This document shows positions 16,875 to 33,874 of a DNA stretch of 60,053 nt, in pieces (within the stretch, counting starts at the first letter, position 1; the number at the start of each line of letters is the position of its first letter). The position numbers and the translations under genes were made by a program. This stretch comes from a phage, in assembly GCA_012409925.1 (NCBI GenBank), contig GCA_012409925.1_4804.1. One strand, written 5' to 3'. The notes beneath the pieces are model-generated. The model was not told the DNA's origin, searched no databases, and saw only the letters and a program-made list of their open reading frames with translations.

Positions 16875-16984
16875 CCACCCTCAAATAAGTATTGTGTATT
16901 ATATCTAATGAAAAAAACTTAGGCAAACAATAATTATGGTTTGAATATGTATAACAACCGATATAGCCGCGCCTTAATTAGTGT

Positions 16985-17260
16985 GATACGGATGATACGG
17001 ATAAAATGAGGCGTATTTTTATCCGTATCGGTGTATAAGCCGCGCTATCACTGGTGTGCTACGGATGATACGGATGATACGGATACTTTTCATATATAAG
17101 AGTTTATAAAAAAATAAAATTAAATTAGATATATAATTTTAAATTAATTTATTTGAATTCCTATATAGTACGGCGGCAACGCGTATCATCCGTATCATCC
17201 GTAAGATTCTTTTGAAAACAACAACTTACTTGATACGGATGATACGTCATTATACGTATA
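16985..17260. repeat. iteron cluster A: about 10 copies of GATACGGAT/ATCCGTATC in both orientations flanking a ~70-bp AT-rich block
   Basis: Direct reading: tandem copies at 16985-17002 and 17061-17086; inverse copies at 17021-17029 and 17182-17205; further copies 17232-17250; AT-rich block 17091-17170. Confidence 0.8.
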
Positions 17261-28969: not shown

Positions 28970-29383
28970 ATGTCAAATAAAAATGATTCTATGAGCCATA
29001 CTTACACTAAAGGCAGCGGCACTGCTTTTGGTTCCAGCATCAAACTTGACGCTCCTGGTTTGCACATCCACAACGTTAATGAAAAATCTGATGTAAGCAG
29101 TCGTGATTTGTCTTTGGTTCTTAAAAATCAACTCGCCTTGGAATCACGGTTGGATAATATTGAGAAGTCGCTGGAAAGTTTGCGCGACCAGCTTTATGGG
29201 CCTTGTCCTGTTGCGGATGATTCAAAGACAGTTAATGTAAATTACGGATTGATCGATAATATGCTTGGAGTCACGTCGCGCTCTGCTGTTAAGGCATATA
29301 ATATTGAAAATCTGATTGGGCAGATTGCTGATGGCTTCGGCACATCTTGCCTTACAGGTATTGAAAGCGATTTCAGTGAATAG
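28970..29383 (+). CDS. hypothetical protein, 137 aa
   Basis: ATG 28970 with AAAGG RBS in track ORF 28904..29383; followed by terminator. Confidence 0.45.
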   Translation: MSNKNDSMSHTYTKGSGTAFGSSIKLDAPGLHIHNVNEKSDVSSRDLSLVLKNQLALESRLDNIEKSLESLRDQLYGPCPVADDSKTVNVNYGLIDNMLGVTSRSAVKAYNIENLIGQIADGFGTSCLTGIESDFSE

Positions 29384-29403
29384 TTGGTAGTGTTGATTTA
29401 ACC

Positions 29404-29445
29404 GTGAATCGTGGGTCGTGGGTCGTGGGTCGTGGGTCGTGGGTC
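29404..29445. repeat. perfect heptamer tandem repeat (GTGGGTC)x5 preceded by one degenerate unit GTGAATC
   Basis: Direct reading: units at 29411, 29418, 29425, 29432, 29439. Confidence 0.95.
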
Positions 29446-29467
29446 GCTTAGTGCGGCCCTTTATTTT
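29441..29467 (+). terminator. rho-independent terminator overlapping last repeat unit
   Basis: GGGTCGC-ttagt-GCGGCCC (one mismatch) followed by TTTATTTT. Confidence 0.45.
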
Positions 29468-30062
29468 GCCTGCCGCGCAGGAGTGTACTGCAAATTTCCT
29501 GTGGGTACAAAATAGTACGGTACTGTCTAGGACTTTTTCTTTGAAAGTTAGTGGACCAAATGTGTCGTATTTTGATTAGTGTACCGCAAATTCCATCAAG
29601 TACCAAAACGCACCAAAAGACCCATGCCATAAAAACCACACGAACGCAATAATCAATCGCCGTTACAGTTTCCAGCGTTACAATTCGAAAGCGAATGATT
29701 CGACGCATAATAATATGAAGCATAATGATTCGAAAGCGAACGATTGCGTGTAGGATAATATCGGTGGGGATTATTCTAGATGCATGTAATTTCGCATGCG
29801 TACTATTTTCGGACGAAGGGTCGGCATATTCCTCGTTTTAGTTCGGAACGAAGGGAAAGTTTTGCGCCTTTATAAAACAACGACTTACGCGACCCGCCCT
29901 AACGGTCCGATATAGGTGTCTATATAAAACAAGGACTTACACGATGTTCTCCATTTAACGTAATACCTGTTATGCGAACTAAGGCGCATCTCGACGAAGA
30001 TTATGCGACGACGAAGGGAAGGATAAAGGAGTTTTCGCGGAGAAGCGCATCGAGATAGGGAC

Positions 30063-30088
30063 GAAGAAAAGCCGCGACTAAGCGCGGC
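30063..30088 (-). terminator. rho-independent terminator ending the minus-strand island operon
   Basis: On minus strand GCCGCG-cttagt-CGCGGC followed by TTTTCTTC. Confidence 0.5.
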
Positions 30089-30114
30089 CTATTAGTAACG
30101 GTGGGTAATTATAA

Positions 30115-30324
30115 TTAAAGGAATAATCCGGCGCGTTTAATTTGTCCCAGGACGTTATCGCGCTTACGACGCATAACCGCGTATTTAACCTCTTCTTCGT
30201 ATCCCCAGCCGCCGATGGATAACATCGCGTTCATATTATCGCATAATTCCTTAAGTTCGCGGAACATATCGATGACGGCGGTACGATGGGCGCGCGCATT
30301 AAGAGAGTTATTCATATTATTCAT
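30115..30324 (-). CDS. small protein, 69 aa
   Basis: ORF track; GGAG RBS overlapping stop of upstream gene; TAA stop. Confidence 0.5.
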   Translation of the reverse strand: MNNMNNSLNARAHRTAVIDMFRELKELCDNMNAMLSIGGWGYEEEVKYAVMRRKRDNVLGQIKRAGLFL

Positions 30325-30335
30325 TTTTCTTCTCC

Positions 30336-30626
30336 TTAAAGGCTTACGATTTTAAAGAAAGTTACTTCGCCGCCGAGTTGCGGGACAGCGATATATTCGC
30401 CGCCGATTTCGGTAATCGTATAGACGAAGCCGTTGATGGTTACGCGGTAGGATACTACGTCCTCGTCGCGATACTTGTAAAGGTCGAGGAGGTTGATCGG
30501 CTCATAAATAGACTCGATAGTCGCGTCTACGTTAGAGAGATAAACGCTCTCTAAGGTTTCGCCAAATACGTTAGAGTTTTCGGAAGTCTCGACGCGAGCG
30601 GAACGGATAGCGGCTAAAGTAATCAT
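30336..30626 (-). CDS. small acidic protein, 96 aa, paralogue of 31262..31546
   Basis: ORF track; AGGAG RBS; net charge about -10; no His/Cys/Trp; shares VY..NVD.TIE and VN.NG(Y/F)...EIG segments with the divergently transcribed paralogue. Confidence 0.6.
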   Translation of the reverse strand: MITLAAIRSARVETSENSNVFGETLESVYLSNVDATIESIYEPINLLDLYKYRDEDVVSYRVTINGFVYTITEIGGEYIAVPQLGGEVTFFKIVSL

Positions 30627-30693
30627 AATAATCTCCTAGCTGGGAGGGCGGGTAGCGACCTATTCGCTACCTCATCCCCTCTCGATATAAAAC

Positions 30694-30722
30694 ATTATAG
30701 TCTTAGTGTACGAAGAAGTAAA
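30694..30722 (-). promoter_or_regulatory. near-consensus sigma70-type promoter (island copy 1)
   Basis: Minus strand reads GTGCTTTACT-17 nt-TATAAT; -35 at 30717-30722, -10 at 30694-30699. Confidence 0.55.
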
Positions 30723-30733
30723 GCACTTTTTCG

Positions 30734-31036
30734 TTATTCTGCGATAAAATATTTATAAGCCTTATCGCCTTCTACGTCGATATACTCGACGATAATTAAC
30801 GCTTCGCCGCGCGGCGTAACCGTCTCGATAAGGGTAACGGCTTCGTCGTCGGTCTTCGCGAATCGGATTGCGCTACGTTCGGCGTATTTAATTTCGTCGA
30901 AGGAGAGGCCGACGAAAGCGACGGCGCGGACCTTAATGGCGCTAGATTCTAGTTCCGCGTTAACGGCGGCGATAAGAGAGCGAACGGTTAAGCGGTCTTC
31001 GTCGTAAGTAAGGATAGAAGAGATTAAAGTGGTCAT
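30734..31036 (-). CDS. small acidic protein, 100 aa
   Basis: ORF track frame; start at ATG 31036 (GGGAG RBS); no His/Cys/Trp/Gln; TAA stop. Confidence 0.55.
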   Translation of the reverse strand: MTTLISSILTYDEDRLTVRSLIAAVNAELESSAIKVRAVAFVGLSFDEIKYAERSAIRFAKTDDEAVTLIETVTPRGEALIIVEYIDVEGDKAYKYFIAE

Positions 31037-31093
31037 AATAAAACTCCCGATGCTATTAGAAGGAAGGGCCATCGCCCGTCTCGATATAAACAA

Positions 31094-31121
31094 GTATACG
31101 CGAGTGTACGAAGAAGTAAAG
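31094..31121 (-). promoter_or_regulatory. near-consensus sigma70-type promoter (island copy 2)
   Basis: Minus strand reads CTTTACT-16 nt-TATACT with the same TTCTTCGTACAC spacer core as copy 1. Confidence 0.5.
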
Positions 31122-31165
31122 AAAAAAAGATAAAATAATTTATCGCATTTTTATCGAAAAAGTGC

Positions 31166-31193
31166 TTTACTTTTTTCTACACTATATTATAAT
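31166..31193 (+). promoter_or_regulatory. near-consensus sigma70-type promoter (island copy 3)
   Basis: AGTGCTTTACT-16 nt-TATAAT; -35 at 31166-31171, -10 at 31188-31193; shares GTGCTTTACT and TACACT with copies 1 and 2. Confidence 0.55.
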
Positions 31194-31261
31194 GTACTCA
31201 TATCGGGACGGGATGAGTTAACGAATAGGTCGTTAACGCCTCTCCCAACTAGGAGTTTAAA

Positions 31262-31546
31262 ATGGCTATTCTTAACGTTTCTTCTATCCGTAACGCTATC
31301 GTCGAGAACTACGGCGTAAAACAAATTTTATCCGAAGTCTACGCCGCGAACGTAGACCAAACTATCGAGGCGGGTGGGGTAACGGTCGCCGAGGCTTTTA
31401 AACTTTACGCGGCGTTACCGGAATCGGACCGCGAAGCCTTCGAAGTAAACGTTAACGGATATTTCTTCGAAGCGGTCGAAATCGGTAATATCTTACTCGT
31501 TATGGGCGAAGAAGAATTTGAGACCTTCTCCCTCGTCGAAGCGTAA
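31262..31546 (+). CDS. small acidic protein, 94 aa, paralogue of 30336..30626
   Basis: ORF track; AGGAG RBS; net charge about -15; no His/Cys/Trp. Confidence 0.6.
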   Translation: MAILNVSSIRNAIVENYGVKQILSEVYAANVDQTIEAGGVTVAEAFKLYAALPESDREAFEVNVNGYFFEAVEIGNILLVMGEEEFETFSLVEA

Positions 31547-31626
31547 GAGAGGATTTTTAGAGCGTCGTGCGCGGCGCTTTAATAAAATTCTTTCGCGCCT
31601 AGCGCCCTAACAAATAGGAGTTTATT

Positions 31627-32253
31627 ATGGTTAGCTTAAATCGTTTCTCGACTAGCGGCGACGTTATCGCAACTAAGACCGCCGACCTCGTTGCATTTTA
31701 TAATGCAAATTCCGGTTCGAAGCCGATTAAGAAATTTGCGGACCGCCGGACCGCCGAGACTCGCGTAATCGCGTTAATCGAGTCCTTAAACGCGCTCGAT
31801 GAGCCATCCAATGAATCGCCCATTCCCGACGCGAAGCCGCGCGAGGAAGTGTCCAGCGATGTAAAAACGCATAAGGCGCGTGCGGTCGTTAAAAAGGCTG
31901 AGCCGACCCAGGAAGAACTCGACGCGATGAGCGATGAAGAATATGAAGCCTTCGTTAAGAGCGGCTTAAACGATAGTGCAAATTGCGTAGTACAAAATGG
32001 AACTCCTTCCCATCGCCGTTCGAATAGCGAAGGTATTGCAAAAAGTTGGGATAATAAGGAAGTGGCGCAAAAGCGTCTTACCCGTAACGGCGTTATGGTC
32101 GAGGGTGTAGGCGAGTTCAAATCGGTCCGCGCAGCATTCGCCGCGCTGGGCTTACCGGACAGCAAGCATATTCGCTTCCGCATGAAGCTTAAAGAAGCTG
32201 GACGCTTGAACTTCGAGTTCGGCAACAAGTCCTTCACCTTCCAGATTATCTAA
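31627..32253 (+). CDS. hypothetical protein, 208 aa
   Basis: ORF track; AGGAG RBS; composition switches mid-gene from the island dialect to ordinary coding. Confidence 0.5.
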   Translation: MVSLNRFSTSGDVIATKTADLVAFYNANSGSKPIKKFADRRTAETRVIALIESLNALDEPSNESPIPDAKPREEVSSDVKTHKARAVVKKAEPTQEELDAMSDEEYEAFVKSGLNDSANCVVQNGTPSHRRSNSEGIAKSWDNKEVAQKRLTRNGVMVEGVGEFKSVRAAFAALGLPDSKHIRFRMKLKEAGRLNFEFGNKSFTFQII

Positions 32254-32260
32254 TCAAATG

Positions 32261-32285
32261 GCGGCCCTTCGAGGTCGCTTTTCAT
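32261..32285 (+). terminator. terminator-like hairpin
   Basis: GCGGCC-cttcga-GGTCGC (one G-U pair) followed by TTTTCAT. Confidence 0.35.
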
Positions 32286-32303
32286 AGTGCAAATTGGTGG
32301 CTT

Positions 32304-32567
32304 ATGAACACGCTTATTCTCATCGCTACGTTGTCCATCGGAAGTGGTCGCACCTTATCGCTGTACGACCATAGTGCAAATTGCGCTTACCCTACGCGCG
32401 TTGCGGCAATAGTTAATAGTGCAAATCGAATGCTATTCGAGACTTGTTGGCGGGTCGATAACGAGAAAGGGCGCATCATCTTAGGTTATAGTGCGAATCT
32501 GCTGGTGGAGTCGTTCGATTGGACGGTTGAAGGTCGTAAATTGTTACGTAAGGTGACTAAAAGATGA
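32304..32567 (+). CDS. hypothetical protein, 87 aa (carries three in-frame motif copies)
   Basis: ORF track; GGTGG RBS; ATAGTGCAAAT-type motif occurs three times in frame as Ser-Ala-Asn, so coding status is uncertain. Confidence 0.35.
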   Translation: MNTLILIATLSIGSGRTLSLYDHSANCAYPTRVAAIVNSANRMLFETCWRVDNEKGRIILGYSANLLVESFDWTVEGRKLLRKVTKR

Positions 32568-32681
32568 CTTATAATAATACACTTTCTAACGCGTTTATGG
32601 TTGTAACCTTCCCCGTCGTATTACCGATGGCCCTAGAAGTGGAGAAAATGTGTTCTAGGGCCGTTTTATAGTGCAAATTGG

Positions 32682-33155
32682 CTAGTGGCGGGAGAATTGC
32701 TCGCCTTCTTTGGCCGCCTCTCCGAAATCCTTGTAGAAATCGTCCATGGAACGGCCCATTTTACTATTGCCGTTTTCATCAATCATCGTGATGCCGTAGA
32801 TGATGTTCAGTTCACGAATAGCATTAAGCTTGGCTGACGCCGCGACTTCTGGATCACGCACAAGCTTGACCAAATTGTGAATTGCACCTTTTACGCTCCA
32901 CAAATCCTTGAGTGGCATCTCTTCCATACGCTTTTTGAAGCGCATCTTGTAGTATGGATTGCGTTGCGTGCAAAGGATTCGCTGGCCAGTGTAGTTATCC
33001 GTTGCAACTTCCATTCCAAATACTAGTGCAAAAGCTGCGCGCATGTCATGGCCCTGAATAACAAGGTCAATGAACTCATCGAATAAAGCCTGATTGTGCT
33101 CTGCAAATCGCGGGTCTTCAAAGTCTTCAGGCATCGCTACATAATCTTGACTCAT
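32682..33155 (-). CDS. hypothetical protein, 157 aa (small-terminase candidate, speculative)
   Basis: ORF track frame from ATG 33155 (MSQDYVAMPEDFEDPRF...); ordinary codon usage; start codon abuts three tandem motif copies. Confidence 0.4.
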   Translation of the reverse strand: MSQDYVAMPEDFEDPRFAEHNQALFDEFIDLVIQGHDMRAAFALVFGMEVATDNYTGQRILCTQRNPYYKMRFKKRMEEMPLKDLWSVKGAIHNLVKLVRDPEVAASAKLNAIRELNIIYGITMIDENGNSKMGRSMDDFYKDFGEAAKEGEQFSRH

Positions 33156-33280
33156 AGTGCAAAATCCCATAGTGCAAATTAATAGTGTGAATTATACAAT
33201 GGATGGACATTATATTCAAGTGCAGATTGATGTTCATTATGGCTATAAACATACACAAATCATAGTGCTGAATGAATAGC

Positions 33281-33874
33281 GGACCGTGGTGCGTGGTGTA
33301 CTGTTTGATACGTATAAAATAAATCCATCCCTTTTGCCGCTTGTTATGCAAATCAATGACTTAGCCGCTGCTGGCTGGTTGAAGCGTATCATGACGTATC
33401 ATCCGTATTGCCGCAAGTCTTTGTTTTTACTTATATCTTACGGATAATACGTATAAATATAAGTTTAGTATAAGTATGAGGATGTAGAAAAAAAATTAAT
33501 TTAAATGTTTTTAAAATGGAGTTAATTAATTTTTAGAATTATTCTGGTTACAATAAGAAAAAATGGCGTATCATCCGTATCATCCGTATGAGTGTACCAG
33601 TAGAATCCAGGCGCGGCGCACCTTACAGCCATGATACGTCTCAATACGGCCAAAAACCTATCCGTAAGAGTGTACGCATCAACCAAAGAATCCAGGCGCG
33701 GCGCACTCTTCCACACCACACACCACGGTTCAATCTCCAAAATCCACACACTAAAAGTCACAATCACCGTATCATTCTCCAAAAATAAATCCAAATTTCC
33801 ATTTTATTTATTATTTTCATCCACAATATCCTAAATTCCATCCGTATCAACCAAGCCTCAACCCACCACGGTCC
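33281..33874. repeat. iteron cluster B: ATCCGTATC-type repeats, 19-bp direct repeat and AT-rich block, bracketed by 11-bp inverted repeat
   Basis: GCGTATCATCCGTATCATCCGTA at 33567-33589 identical to 17181-17203; further copies at 33385-33410, 33437-33457, 33631-33649, 33659-33668, 33766-33777 and 33841-33851; GAATCCAGGCGCGGCGCAC at 33603 and 33688; GGACCGTGGTG (33281) / CACCACGGTCC (33864). Confidence 0.8.

What the first reader, a model, noticed from the sequence alone, without database searches (positions are those of the whole stretch)
30063..32050. Recoded island: CA/TG-depleted, CpG-rich block of small acidic-protein genes
Seen in sequence: across genes 30734..31036, 30336..30626 and 31262..31546 (about 880 nt) I count by eye roughly 20 CA+TG dinucleotides where about 110 would occur at equal dinucleotide frequencies, while CG is about twice over-represented (about 40 CG in the 285-nt gene 31262..31546). 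All island genes stop with TAA, Leu is CTT/CTC/TTA rather than CTG, and the three proteins contain no His, Cys or Trp and almost no Gln or internal Met (every codon for these residues contains CA or TG). Flanking genes (28970..29383, 32682..33155, the 34-46 kb block) use ordinary coding. The depletion is strand-symmetric, so it acts on duplex DNA rather than on mRNA. Inference: either recent acquisition from a donor with this bias, or selection to keep first-expressed genes free of a CA/TG-containing target (host nuclease, modification-dependent system, or the phage's own DNA chemistry).
Basis: partly seen in the sequence, partly recalled or inferred. Interest (0 to 1): 0.9.

Follow-up and report, generated by a model that had tools for sequence, protein, structure and literature searches.

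The report
CA/TG-free early-gene island in phage terminal repeat
A 2-kb stretch in the terminal repeat of this E. coli phage, holding its likely first-expressed genes, has been almost completely cleared of the DNA steps CA and TG by natural selection, a local "dialect" shared by related phages of four host genera whose cause is unknown but which fits the DNA that must survive alone in the cell before the phage's defences are up.

Summary
Across window ~29.8-31.8 kb (fading to ~32.3 kb), CA and TG fall to about a quarter of the genome level. CG and TA nearly double. The other 12 dinucleotides are unchanged (z = -14.6).

The window is a Wifcevirus (E. coli myophage). The island lies in the inner half of its ~4-kb direct terminal repeat, ~250 bp from one physical genome end.

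The depletion affects all codon positions, codon junctions and intergenic DNA, on both strands. Polymorphism data show it is still under purifying selection.

The same island, in the same place, occurs in Serratia, Erwinia and Pantoea phages whose proteins are only 40-50% identical. It is absent from PB1-like relatives, T7, SPO1 and LLS.

The island coincides with a promoter class found almost nowhere else in these genomes (CTTTACT-N16-17-TATAAT). These promoters drive small acidic proteins of unknown function.

Published restriction phenotypes fit a T5-like "first-entering DNA" model. The repeat has no sites, or one uncleavable site, for every system the phage resists. It has seven for EcoP1I, the only system that restricts it.

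The island is flanked by a strand-specific CA-run and, in relatives, by an oriented Chi array.

Foreign acquisition is rejected. Selection on duplex DNA is supported. The factor that reads CA/TG remains unidentified.

The parts
29535..33517 (.). Direct terminal repeat (DTR), present once in this circularly permuted assembly. 29535 is the inner boundary, which is also the 'right' physical terminus. 33517 is the 'left' physical terminus.
   Evidence: WFC carries two identical 3,784-bp copies, and both boundaries map to these window positions by BLAST. PhageTerm DTR annotation in Mansfield. ~3.7 kb repeat reported for WFC/WFH.
29560..29700 (+). Strand-specific CA-run between the terminus and the island. 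The + strand is C/A-rich, so the complementary 3'-ending strand is GT-rich.
   Evidence: CA 9+9 against TG 7+3 in the first 200 bp here. The bias is much stronger in relatives (MyoSmar CA 14/TG 1, C 44/G 6 per 100 bp; Kyle CA 14/TG 0).
29800..31800 (.). Core CA/TG exclusion zone (the island).
   Evidence: CA x0.26, TG x0.24, CG x1.94, TA x1.88, z = -14.6. Conserved in 11 aligned Wifcevirus genomes.
31801..32300 (.). Fade zone with intermediate depletion, inside the 208-aa gene.
   Evidence: CA+TG per 100 bp rises from ~3 to ~11. The same fade is seen in all relatives.
30069..30090 (-). Terminator-like hairpin ending the leftward operon.
   Evidence: annotated at the equivalent place in Mansfield and WFC.
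30115..30324 (-). 69-aa basic protein (pI 9.4), PHROG 10377 'transcriptional regulator'. Present in some Wifceviruses only; less depleted than its neighbours.
   Evidence: presence/absence among relatives.
30336..30626 (-). 96-aa acidic protein (pI 4.2), paralog of 31262..31546.
   Evidence: 9 CA+TG in 291 nt. 31% identical to its paralog. No Pfam, PHROG, PADLOC or PDB match.
30694..30722 (-). Early-type sigma-70 promoter, CTTTACT-N17-TATAAT.
30734..31036 (-). 100-aa acidic protein (pI 4.6), found in all Wifceviruses.
   Evidence: 5 CA+TG in 303 nt, 44 CG. Found in 29 of 29 records and only in Wifcevirus.
31093..31120 (-). Early-type promoter, CTTTACT-N16-TATACT.
31166..31193 (+). Early-type promoter, CTTTACT-N16-TATAAT, reading inward from the nearer genome end.
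31262..31546 (+). 94-aa acidic protein (pI 4.05). A variable cassette: present in 12 of 29 records and replaced by a different acidic gene in WFC-type phages, which is equally CA/TG-poor.
31627..32253 (+). 208-aa two-domain protein of a widespread phage family (PHROG 4730). The N-terminal third is strongly depleted and the rest moderately.
32304..32567 (+). 87-aa ORF of normal composition. It contains the DTR's single Chi site (32501-32508, + strand), oriented for RecBCD entering at 33517.
32682..33155 (-). Small terminase subunit, of normal composition, in the outer part of the DTR.
   Evidence: Annotated in Mansfield by HHpred. PHROG 4783. Composition.

Best explanation
The island is an immediate-early ('pre-early') gene cassette in the direct terminal repeat. 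It is functionally analogous to the first-step-transfer region of phage T5, and its duplex DNA is kept free of the CA:TG base-pair step by strong purifying selection. CG and TA rise only because they are the remaining pyrimidine-purine steps. Proposed mechanism: because the repeat is at both ends, this cassette is among the first DNA to enter the cell. Host RNA polymerase transcribes it from three very strong promoters of a type found only here. Its small acidic proteins and the 208-aa protein then establish protection for the rest of the genome, or permit it to enter. Until then the cassette is naked. Selection has therefore removed from it the sequence element read by a DNA-directed activity present at that moment, either a host nuclease or restriction-like system or a DNase the phage itself unleashes on host DNA. 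Shown: the composition, its position, its conservation, ongoing selection, the promoter class, and the match between restriction phenotypes and the site map. Inferred: entry order, timing of expression, the protective role of the proteins, and the existence and identity of the CA/TG reader.
For: (1) Duplex-level constraint. Depletion is equal for CA and TG in genes of either orientation and in a unidirectional operon, at codon positions 1-2, 2-3 and 3-1, and in intergenic DNA. Synonymous codons containing CA/TG are used 5/157 times against 1298/4139 in the genome. CpG occupies 28% of codon junctions against 9%. (2) The bias follows position, not gene family. Two paralogs in MyoSmar carry 15 CA+TG in 504 nt (inside the island) and 86 in 636 nt (outside). 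In MTx the family member lies outside the island and is normal. Alternative cassettes in the same slot are equally depleted. (3) Ongoing selection. Transitions creating CA/TG occur at 5.1% of eligible sites against 8.6% for other transitions in the island; in adjacent DTR zones the figures are 14-16% against 6-8%. Ts/Tv is 1.4 in the island against 2.3-4.5 outside. (4) Same island, same place (starting ~200-265 bp from the DTR boundary) in Wifcevirus, Myosmarvirus (Serratia, Erwinia) and Kylevirus (Pantoea), with minimum CA/TG odds of 0.16-0.36. (5) The promoter CTTTACT-N16-17-TATAAT occurs 3, 1, 1, 4 and 1 times in the islands. It does not occur in the other 50 kb of MTx or Kyle. (6) Restriction map against published phenotype. 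Wifceviruses resist EcoKI, EcoCFT_I, EcoRI, EcoRV and EcoCFT_II but are 'very sensitive' to EcoP1I, which the authors could not explain. The DTR has 0 CACAG (EcoCFT_II, motif inferred; ~5 expected), 0 EcoRI, 0 EcoRV, 0 EcoAI-type and 1 EcoKI site. It has 7 AGACC sites in both orientations. The genome outside the DTR has ordinary numbers of these sites. (7) T5's first-step-transfer repeat also has its own dinucleotide signature (CG x1.73, AG/CT x0.7), and its restriction resistance is attributed to functions in the early-injected region.
Against: No experiment shows which end enters first, whether transfer is two-step, or when these genes are expressed. No island protein has a recognisable function; AlphaFold models are unusable (pLDDT ~52). 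No known nuclease or defence system reads a bare CA/TG step. The purge raises the density of palindromes (18 per kb against 11.5 per kb), so it is not a general anti-type-II adaptation. Forbidding CA/TG removes only about half of possible 5-6-bp targets, which seems too small a gain for a tenfold purge that also distorts protein composition. The parts of the DTR flanking the island are rich in CA/TG, so a CA/TG-dependent nuclease would cut them. The restriction correlation rests mainly on one contrast (EcoCFT_II against EcoP1I). T7, which enters slowly from one end, shows no such island.
Confidence: 0.45

Rival explanations
1. DNA-end processing. The terminal repeat is built around host RecBCD/Chi recombination, and the island is the segment between a GT-rich run at one terminus and an oriented Chi array near the other. 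After RecBCD processes both ends, this segment would be the single-stranded overlap used for strand invasion or annealing that circularises or concatenates the genome. CA/TG would be excluded on both strands because each strand is used as ssDNA, for example to avoid Chi-like (GT-rich) signals or primase start sites (E. coli DnaG uses CTG; this is from my own knowledge).
For: The three-zone architecture (CA-run, then CA/TG-free island, then GT-rich zone with perfect Chi sites all in one orientation) is conserved. Kyle has 9 of its 14 Chi sites in the first 2 kb, MTx 4 of 5 in 1.3 kb, MyoSmar 4 and TropicalSun 5. Permuted octamers reach at most 1-2. The sites are oriented for RecBCD entering the left end. 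The strand bias in that zone holds for genes on either strand. CAG/CTG is among the most depleted trinucleotides (x0.12). Terminal Chi arrays driving recombination-dependent growth are documented for P1 and LLS.
Against: LLS has a terminal Chi cluster but no CA/TG-free zone. The Wifcevirus in this window has only one Chi in the DTR. All eight flanking contexts of CA/TG are depleted, not only CTG or Chi-like ones. No known property of RecBCD, RecA or annealing proteins penalises single CA/TG steps. It does not explain why the island coincides with the unique early promoters.
Confidence: 0.2
2. Packaging signal contrast. The terminase, slowing as the head fills, scans for the strand-specific CA-run that marks the terminal cut. 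The 2 kb packaged just before it is kept free of CA/TG so that the signal is unique and premature cuts are avoided.
For: The island always ends 200-265 bp before the DTR boundary, directly abutting the CA-run. In Wifcevirus and Kyle the depletion strengthens gradually toward that end.
Against: The cut sites inferred from WFC's repeat boundaries (CTCC|ATTT and GAAA|AAGT) contain no CA/TG. A cluster signal would not require removal of every single CA/TG, nor distortion of protein composition. Packaging direction is unknown. In MTx and MyoSmar both island edges are sharp.
Confidence: 0.1
3. RNA-level selection. Early mRNAs avoid CA and UG to escape an endoribonuclease or to tune translation.
For: The island coincides roughly with transcription units (MyoSmar promoter at 254, terminator at 1680-1701, island ~200-1900).
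Against: It needs two unrelated RNA motifs that happen to be reverse complements. Depletion is equal for CA and TG on the sense strand of a unidirectional operon. Depletion continues in promoter and intergenic DNA and beyond terminators. UA, the classic RNase-sensitive step, is enriched.
Confidence: 0.08
4. The phage's own DNA chemistry. Virion DNA is modified at CA/TG-containing sites, which would explain the restriction resistance, and the early cassette avoids the motif so that host RNA polymerase can read it on the incoming, modified genome.
For: [quoted passage not shown] A thymidylate-synthase homolog, a kinase/phosphatase and a reductase are clustered in the genome.
Against: No known modification genes. 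The genome can be rebooted from PCR fragments. EcoRI (GAATTC) and EcoRV (GATATC) contain no CA/TG yet are resisted. EcoP1I and EcoCFT_II have similar site numbers but opposite outcomes, which position explains and chemistry does not.
Confidence: 0.08
5. A local mutational process, for example error-prone or deaminase-linked synthesis during repeat duplication, converts CA/TG to CG or TA.
For: All four conversions are transitions. Only the YR steps are affected.
Against: GC content is unchanged. Functional CA/TG (ATG starts, promoter GTGC/ACAC) are retained. The residual CA/TG sites do not mutate faster (7/70 against 48/558). The process would have to spare the outer 1.2-1.5 kb and the last 250 bp of the same repeat. 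The 208-aa protein is 97-100% conserved across hundreds of variants.
Confidence: 0.07
6. Recent horizontal acquisition from a donor with this bias.
For: Sharp compositional boundary; genes without homologs elsewhere.
Against: Present in every Wifcevirus and in other genera at 40-50% protein identity. GC content is normal. There is no sign of amelioration; selection opposes it. No genome I know of has CG 2.1 together with CA/TG 0.3 (own knowledge).
Confidence: 0.02

Closest known systems
First-step-transfer (pre-early) region in the long terminal repeat of phage T5
   Same: It lies in a long direct terminal repeat and carries strong host-polymerase promoters and small early genes. The phage resists restriction although the rest of its genome has sites. 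The repeat has a dinucleotide signature of its own (T5: CG x1.73, GC x1.38, AG/CT x0.7).
   Different: There is no homology to A1, A2 or dmp. The island covers only ~2 kb of a ~4-kb repeat. The signature is a near-total purge of one base-pair step (CA:TG), which T5 does not show. Two-step transfer has not been demonstrated here.
Leading region of T7 with Ocr (gene 0.3), and acidic DNA-mimic anti-restriction proteins (Ocr, ArdA)
   Same: Small, very acidic proteins (pI 4.0-4.6) are encoded next to a genome end behind strong sigma-70 promoters. The phage resists type I systems.
   Different: No sequence similarity, and structure could not be predicted. Resistance here extends to type II and one type III system. 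T7 has no compositional island.
Terminally clustered, oriented Chi arrays (P1 terminal redundancy; lambdoid phage LLS)
   Same: Perfect GCTGGTGG sites, all in the orientation active for RecBCD entering the nearby end, are concentrated in or near the terminal repeat (Kyle 9, TropicalSun 5, MTx 4, MyoSmar 4).
   Different: In this window there is only one such Chi. The Chi zone abuts a CA/TG-free zone that LLS lacks.
Restriction-site and short-motif avoidance in phage genomes (e.g. GATC, CTAG, palindromes)
   Same: Selection on DNA words independent of coding. This genome also avoids GATC (93 against 231 expected) and CTAG (31 against 231).
   Different: Those biases are genome-wide and involve 4-6-bp words. 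Here a 2-bp step is excluded locally, palindrome density goes up, and CTAG is relatively enriched (6 of 31 in the island).
Dinucleotide avoidance in vertebrate viruses (CpG/UpA suppression; own knowledge)
   Same: A dinucleotide-level constraint that overrides codon choice.
   Different: That bias is genome-wide, acts at the RNA level and has the opposite sign. Here CpG and TpA are enriched and the constraint is strand-symmetric and local.

Membership tests
T5-type first-step-transfer / pre-early region | Located within a long direct terminal repeat | tested here: met
   DTR of 3,784 bp in WFC maps to window 29535-33517, and the island lies inside it.
T5-type first-step-transfer / pre-early region | Enters the cell first, with a pause before the rest of the genome | not testable with these tools
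   Needs interrupted-infection or time-resolved DNA-entry experiments.
T5-type first-step-transfer / pre-early region | Strong host-RNA-polymerase promoters driving small early genes | tested here: met
   Three near-identical CTTTACT-N16-17-TATAAT promoters, a class confined to the island across genera. Expression timing was not tested.
T5-type first-step-transfer / pre-early region | The region lacks sites for restriction systems the phage resists, while the rest of the genome has them | tested here: met
   0 CACAG, 0 EcoRI, 0 EcoRV, 0 EcoAI-type and 1 EcoKI site in the DTR, against 92, 38, 8, 3 and 5 in the genome. 7 EcoP1I sites, and the phage is sensitive to EcoP1I.
T5-type first-step-transfer / pre-early region | Homologs of the T5 pre-early proteins (A1, A2, dmp) | tested here: not met
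   No Pfam or PHROG relation. This is an analogy only, not membership.
Horizontally acquired compositional island | Atypical G+C, patchy distribution among relatives, decay toward host composition | tested here: not met
   GC 0.466 against 0.459. Present in all relatives and in other genera. CA/TG-creating changes are under-represented.
General restriction-site (palindrome) avoidance | 4-6-bp palindromes rarer than composition predicts, and more so than elsewhere | tested here: not met
   Observed/expected is 0.66 in the islands against 0.70 in the background. Absolute density is higher in the island.
Terminal oriented Chi array (P1/LLS type) | Several perfect Chi sites in one orientation, clustered at a terminus | tested here: inconclusive
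   Met in Kyle, MTx, MyoSmar and TropicalSun. In this window there is a single, correctly oriented Chi at 32501.
Acidic DNA-mimic anti-restriction proteins (Ocr/ArdA) | Highly acidic small protein | tested here: met
   pI 4.05, 4.23 and 4.57, with D+E of 14-18 per ~100 aa.
Acidic DNA-mimic anti-restriction proteins (Ocr/ArdA) | Sequence or structural similarity to known mimics; charge pattern imitating B-DNA | tested here: inconclusive
   No sequence match in PDB, Pfam or PADLOC. AlphaFold pLDDT of 51-53 is too low for a fold search.

The most novel reading that the evidence does not exclude
The island reports the existence of an undescribed DNA-directed activity with essentially dinucleotide (CA:TG-step) specificity, acting in the first minutes of infection of enterobacteria. 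It could be a widespread host defence or a phage-triggered DNase that destroys host DNA. The phage's pre-early cassette would be written in a restricted 'alphabet' so that it alone survives. A related possibility is that local dinucleotide 'dialects' are a general, unnoticed property of first-entering terminal-repeat DNA; T5's repeat shows a different one.
Probability: 0.25. Interest if true: 0.9.

Novelty: new variant of a known kind. Interest (0 to 1): 0.8.

Why it matters
If the favoured reading is right, this is the clearest sequence footprint yet of the vulnerable period when only the leading piece of a phage genome is in the cell. That idea dates from T5 but its molecular basis is still called "elusive". 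It gives a concrete, testable explanation for a published puzzle: why Wifceviruses resist EcoCFT_II but not EcoP1I despite similar site numbers. It also points to a set of small acidic proteins as candidates for a broad anti-restriction or host-takeover function. The strength of the purge is about tenfold, it has been maintained across genera, and it costs the island proteins five amino acids. This implies that each CA/TG is individually harmful in that DNA, which no known nuclease, defence system or packaging enzyme explains. Practically, synthetic-phage design and recoding for these phages (vB_Eco4M-7 is already rebooted from PCR fragments) should respect this constraint. Local dinucleotide scans could also become a way to find first-entering regions in uncharacterised phages.

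Tried and rejected
- A higher-order motif behind the bias: 3-, 4-, 6- and 8-mer analysis found none. All 16 NCAN contexts are depleted (x0.02 to x0.75), least where ATG or promoter bases are needed.
- Generic restriction avoidance: rejected by palindrome counts.
- Function of the island proteins: Pfam, PHROGs, PADLOC, and PDB sequence and profile searches gave nothing significant. The word-based homolog search for the 94-aa protein found only near-identical copies. Two AlphaFold runs gave pLDDT 51-53, so no fold search was run.
- The small terminase as an anchor in viral contigs returned only Wifceviruses. The 208-aa family alignment worked instead.
- Controls without an island: T7, SPO1, LLS, PB1-like and GC-rich environmental relatives.
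- T5 shows a different dialect, not this one.
- DNA intercalators as the selective agent (prompted): set aside because the CpG enrichment would, to my knowledge, favour anthracycline binding.
- An anticodon- or tRNA-level explanation for the missing amino acids: rejected because codon junctions and intergenic DNA are equally depleted.
- Literature searches on Wifcevirus, Myosmarvirus, vB_Eco4M-7, and dinucleotide bias with terminal repeats found no prior description of the island. One search failed on a term that was too short.


Full report
**1.

CG is 35, 44 and 36.

A 1-kb sliding window over all 60 kb shows one outlier only, at ~29.5-32 kb. There the CA and TG odds ratios fall to 0.21-0.35, CG rises to 2.0-2.2 and TA to 1.1-1.4.

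With 100-bp resolution the core is ~29,800-31,800, with a gradual return to normal by ~32,300.

Only the four pyrimidine-purine steps differ from the rest of the window: CA x0.26, TG x0.24, CG x1.94, TA x1.88. The other twelve dinucleotides lie between x0.91 and x1.14, and G+C is unchanged. Against 212 other 2-kb windows, z is -14.6 for CA/TG. The total frequency of pyrimidine-purine steps is conserved, so the simplest description is exclusion of the CA:TG step, with CG and TA as the only substitutes.

**2. It is a DNA-level constraint**

- Depletion is similar at codon positions 1-2, 2-3 and across codon junctions. It is also present, about threefold, in intergenic DNA.
- Synonymous codons containing CA or TG are used 5 times in 157 opportunities, against 1298 in 4139 in the genome's long genes.
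- CpG occupies 28% of codon junctions against 9%.
- The proteins have adapted: no His, Cys or Trp, Gln x0.22 and Met x0.11.
- No longer motif explains the bias. All 16 NCAN contexts are depleted, from x0.02 (TCAG/CTGA) to x0.75 (ACAC/GTGT). The least depleted are those containing ATG or lying in the conserved promoters.

**3. Where it is**

The window is a Wifcevirus, an E. coli/Shigella myophage of the WFC, ECML-117, Mansfield and Bas98-101 group, at 94-96% identity.

These phages have a direct terminal repeat of ~3.7 kb. WFC's two copies are identical over 3,784 bp, and their boundaries map to window 29,535 and 33,517. The window is therefore a permuted assembly with one repeat copy.

The island occupies the inner half of the repeat. 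The small-terminase gene lies in the outer, compositionally normal part.

Because the repeat is direct, the island's sharp edge is ~250 bp from one physical genome end and 1.7-3.5 kb from the other.

**4. It is conserved and under selection**

All relatives examined show the same profile, including those that carry a different gene in the 31262 slot or lack the 30115 gene.

In an alignment of 11 genomes, transitions that would create a CA/TG occur at 5.1% of eligible sites in the island, against 8.6% for other transitions. In the adjacent parts of the repeat the same comparison gives 14-16% against 6-8%. Ts/Tv is 1.4 in the island against 2.3-4.5 elsewhere.

Using the 208-aa protein family as an anchor, I found the same island in Serratia phages MTx and MyoSmar, Erwinia phage TropicalSun and Pantoea phage Kyle. 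Minimum CA/TG odds there are 0.16-0.36 with CG 1.9-2.25. In each case the island lies in the PhageTerm-annotated or self-evident repeat and starts 200-265 bp from its boundary. GC-rich environmental relatives and PB1-like phages lack it.

The bias follows position, not gene. In MTx the family member lies outside the island and is normal. MyoSmar has one paralog inside (15 CA+TG in 504 nt) and one outside (86 in 636 nt). In MyoSmar's unidirectional operon the sense strand has CA 23 and TG 30 in 1.7 kb, which shows strand symmetry.

These facts exclude recent foreign origin and make an RNA-level cause unlikely.

**5. What the island contains**

Three near-identical sigma-70-type promoters (CTTTACT-N16-17-TATAAT/TATACT, with an A/T-rich upstream region) drive divergent operons. 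The extended motif occurs only at these three places in the window.

The same promoter type marks the islands of MTx, MyoSmar, TropicalSun and Kyle. It is absent from the other 50 kb of MTx and Kyle.

The genes encode acidic proteins of 94-100 aa (pI 4.05-4.6). Two are paralogs, and they have recognisable relatives in the other genera. There is also a 69-aa basic protein (PHROG 'transcriptional regulator') and a 208-aa two-domain protein of a large phage family. None has an assignable function, and AlphaFold models were too poor to use.

**6. Link to published phenotypes**

[quoted passage not shown] I reproduced that paper's site counts on Bas99. I then identified EcoCFT_II's 5-nt site as CACAG, the only 5-mer that gives 92 in Bas99 and 51 in Bas01.

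| System | Sites in the repeat | Published phenotype |
|---|---|---|
| EcoCFT_II (CACAG) | 0 (~5 expected) | resistant |
| EcoRI | 0 | resistant |
| EcoRV | 0 | resistant |
| EcoAI-type (EcoCFT_I) | 0 | resistant |
| EcoKI | 1 | resistant |
| EcoP1I (AGACC) | 7, in both orientations | very sensitive |

This is the pattern known from T5. There, resistance is attributed to functions in the early-injected repeat, and, from my own knowledge of Davison and Brunel's ris mutants, a site created in the first-step-transfer DNA sensitises the phage.

T5's repeat also has a dinucleotide signature of its own, though a different one (CG x1.73, AG/CT x0.7).

**7. The flanks**

Between the terminus and the island lies a strand-specific CA-run. 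On the other side, in the relatives, lies a GT-rich zone with 4-9 perfect Chi sites, all oriented for RecBCD entering the far end. There is one such Chi in this window, at 32,501.

Terminal Chi arrays are known in P1 and LLS, but LLS has no CA/TG-free zone. This architecture motivates the main rival, that the island is shaped by end processing and recombination rather than by evasion.

**8. Verdict**

The best-supported reading (0.45) is a pre-early cassette in the terminal repeat whose duplex DNA is kept free of the CA:TG step, so that it is invisible to a DNA-directed activity present before the cassette's products act.

The weak points are that entry order is unproven, that no known enzyme reads a bare CA/TG step, and that the purge does not lower palindrome load.

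Rivals are end processing/RecBCD (0.2), a packaging-signal contrast (0.1), RNA-level selection (0.08), self-modification (0.08; disfavoured), local mutation bias (0.07) and foreign origin (0.02).

I found no prior description of the island in the searchable literature.

Noticed in passing
L097 1-2000 (Kyle), L095 1-1300 (MTx), L096 2100-2450 (MyoSmar), L106 6790-7300 (TropicalSun); window 32501-32508: Arrays of perfect Chi sites (GCTGGTGG) lie in the outer part of the terminal repeat, all in the orientation active for RecBCD entering the nearby physical end. There are 9, 4, 4 and 5 sites respectively, where about 0.02 is expected. Only one such site occurs in this window. The kind is known from P1 and LLS but apparently has not been noted for these genera.
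   Followed up: yes
window 29560-29700; L096 1-200; L097 3400-3603 (reverse); L095 3370-3566 (reverse): A strand-specific CA-rich, G-poor run (CCAC, CACA, ACCA) sits directly at the repeat boundary next to the island. The strand ending 3' at that terminus is therefore GT-rich with Chi-like TGGTGG. Its function is unknown; possibilities are a terminase signal, an end-protection element or a Rho site.
   Followed up: partly
window 16965-17246 (+) and 33391-33589 (inverted): Iteron-like 9-bp repeats (GATACGGAT, often doubled as TGATACGGATGATACGGAT) occur in an intergenic, TA-rich spot at ~17 kb. They occur again, inverted, on both sides of the left physical terminus. They are possible binding sites for a terminase, replication or regulatory protein.
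   Followed up: partly
window 29403-29451: A tandem heptamer (CGTGGGT) is repeated about five times, running into a terminator-like hairpin (29441-29459), ~90 bp outside the repeat boundary.
   Followed up: no
window 29674-29761: Two copies of a ~43-nt direct repeat (AGCGTTACAATTCGAAAGCGAATGATTCG...ATAATAT) lie between the CA-run and the island. Each ends in a -10-like ATAAT.
   Followed up: no
L098 1-10219 vs L098/L100 10220-64000 (phage T5): T5's first-step-transfer terminal repeat has its own dinucleotide signature relative to the rest of T5: CG x1.73 (odds 1.31 against 0.76; the maximum of any other 2-kb window is 0.95), GC x1.38, AG/CT x0.7, GA/TC x0.8. CA/TG is almost unchanged.
   Followed up: partly
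whole window: Genome-wide word biases: GATC 93 against 231 expected, CTAG 31 against 231, CCGG 66 against 166, and no BamHI or KpnI sites. AAGCTT (53 against 17), CAGCAG (62 against 23.5), GTCGAC (29 against 12) and GCGC/CGCG are in excess.
   Followed up: no
L009+L010 (Bas99) and L105 (Bas01): The recognition sequence of the EcoCFT_II type III system used in the BASEL studies can be inferred as CACAG from the published site counts (92 and 51). It is not given in the text available to me.
   Followed up: yes
window 31262-31546 and 30115-30324; L002 4601-4915: The island is modular. The 94-aa gene is present in 12 of 29 records and is replaced in WFC-type phages by a different 104-aa acidic gene. 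The 69-aa gene is present in only some. All variants obey the CA/TG rule.
   Followed up: partly
window 31627-32253: The 208-aa protein belongs to a large, unannotated phage family (839 representative clusters at 50% identity). It has a conserved N-terminal motif (LVAFYN...KPVKKFADR.TAEKRV) and a C-terminal motif (SW...RLTR.GV.V...FKSVRAAF..L.LPDSKHIRFR.KLK). Some phages carry two copies.
   Followed up: partly
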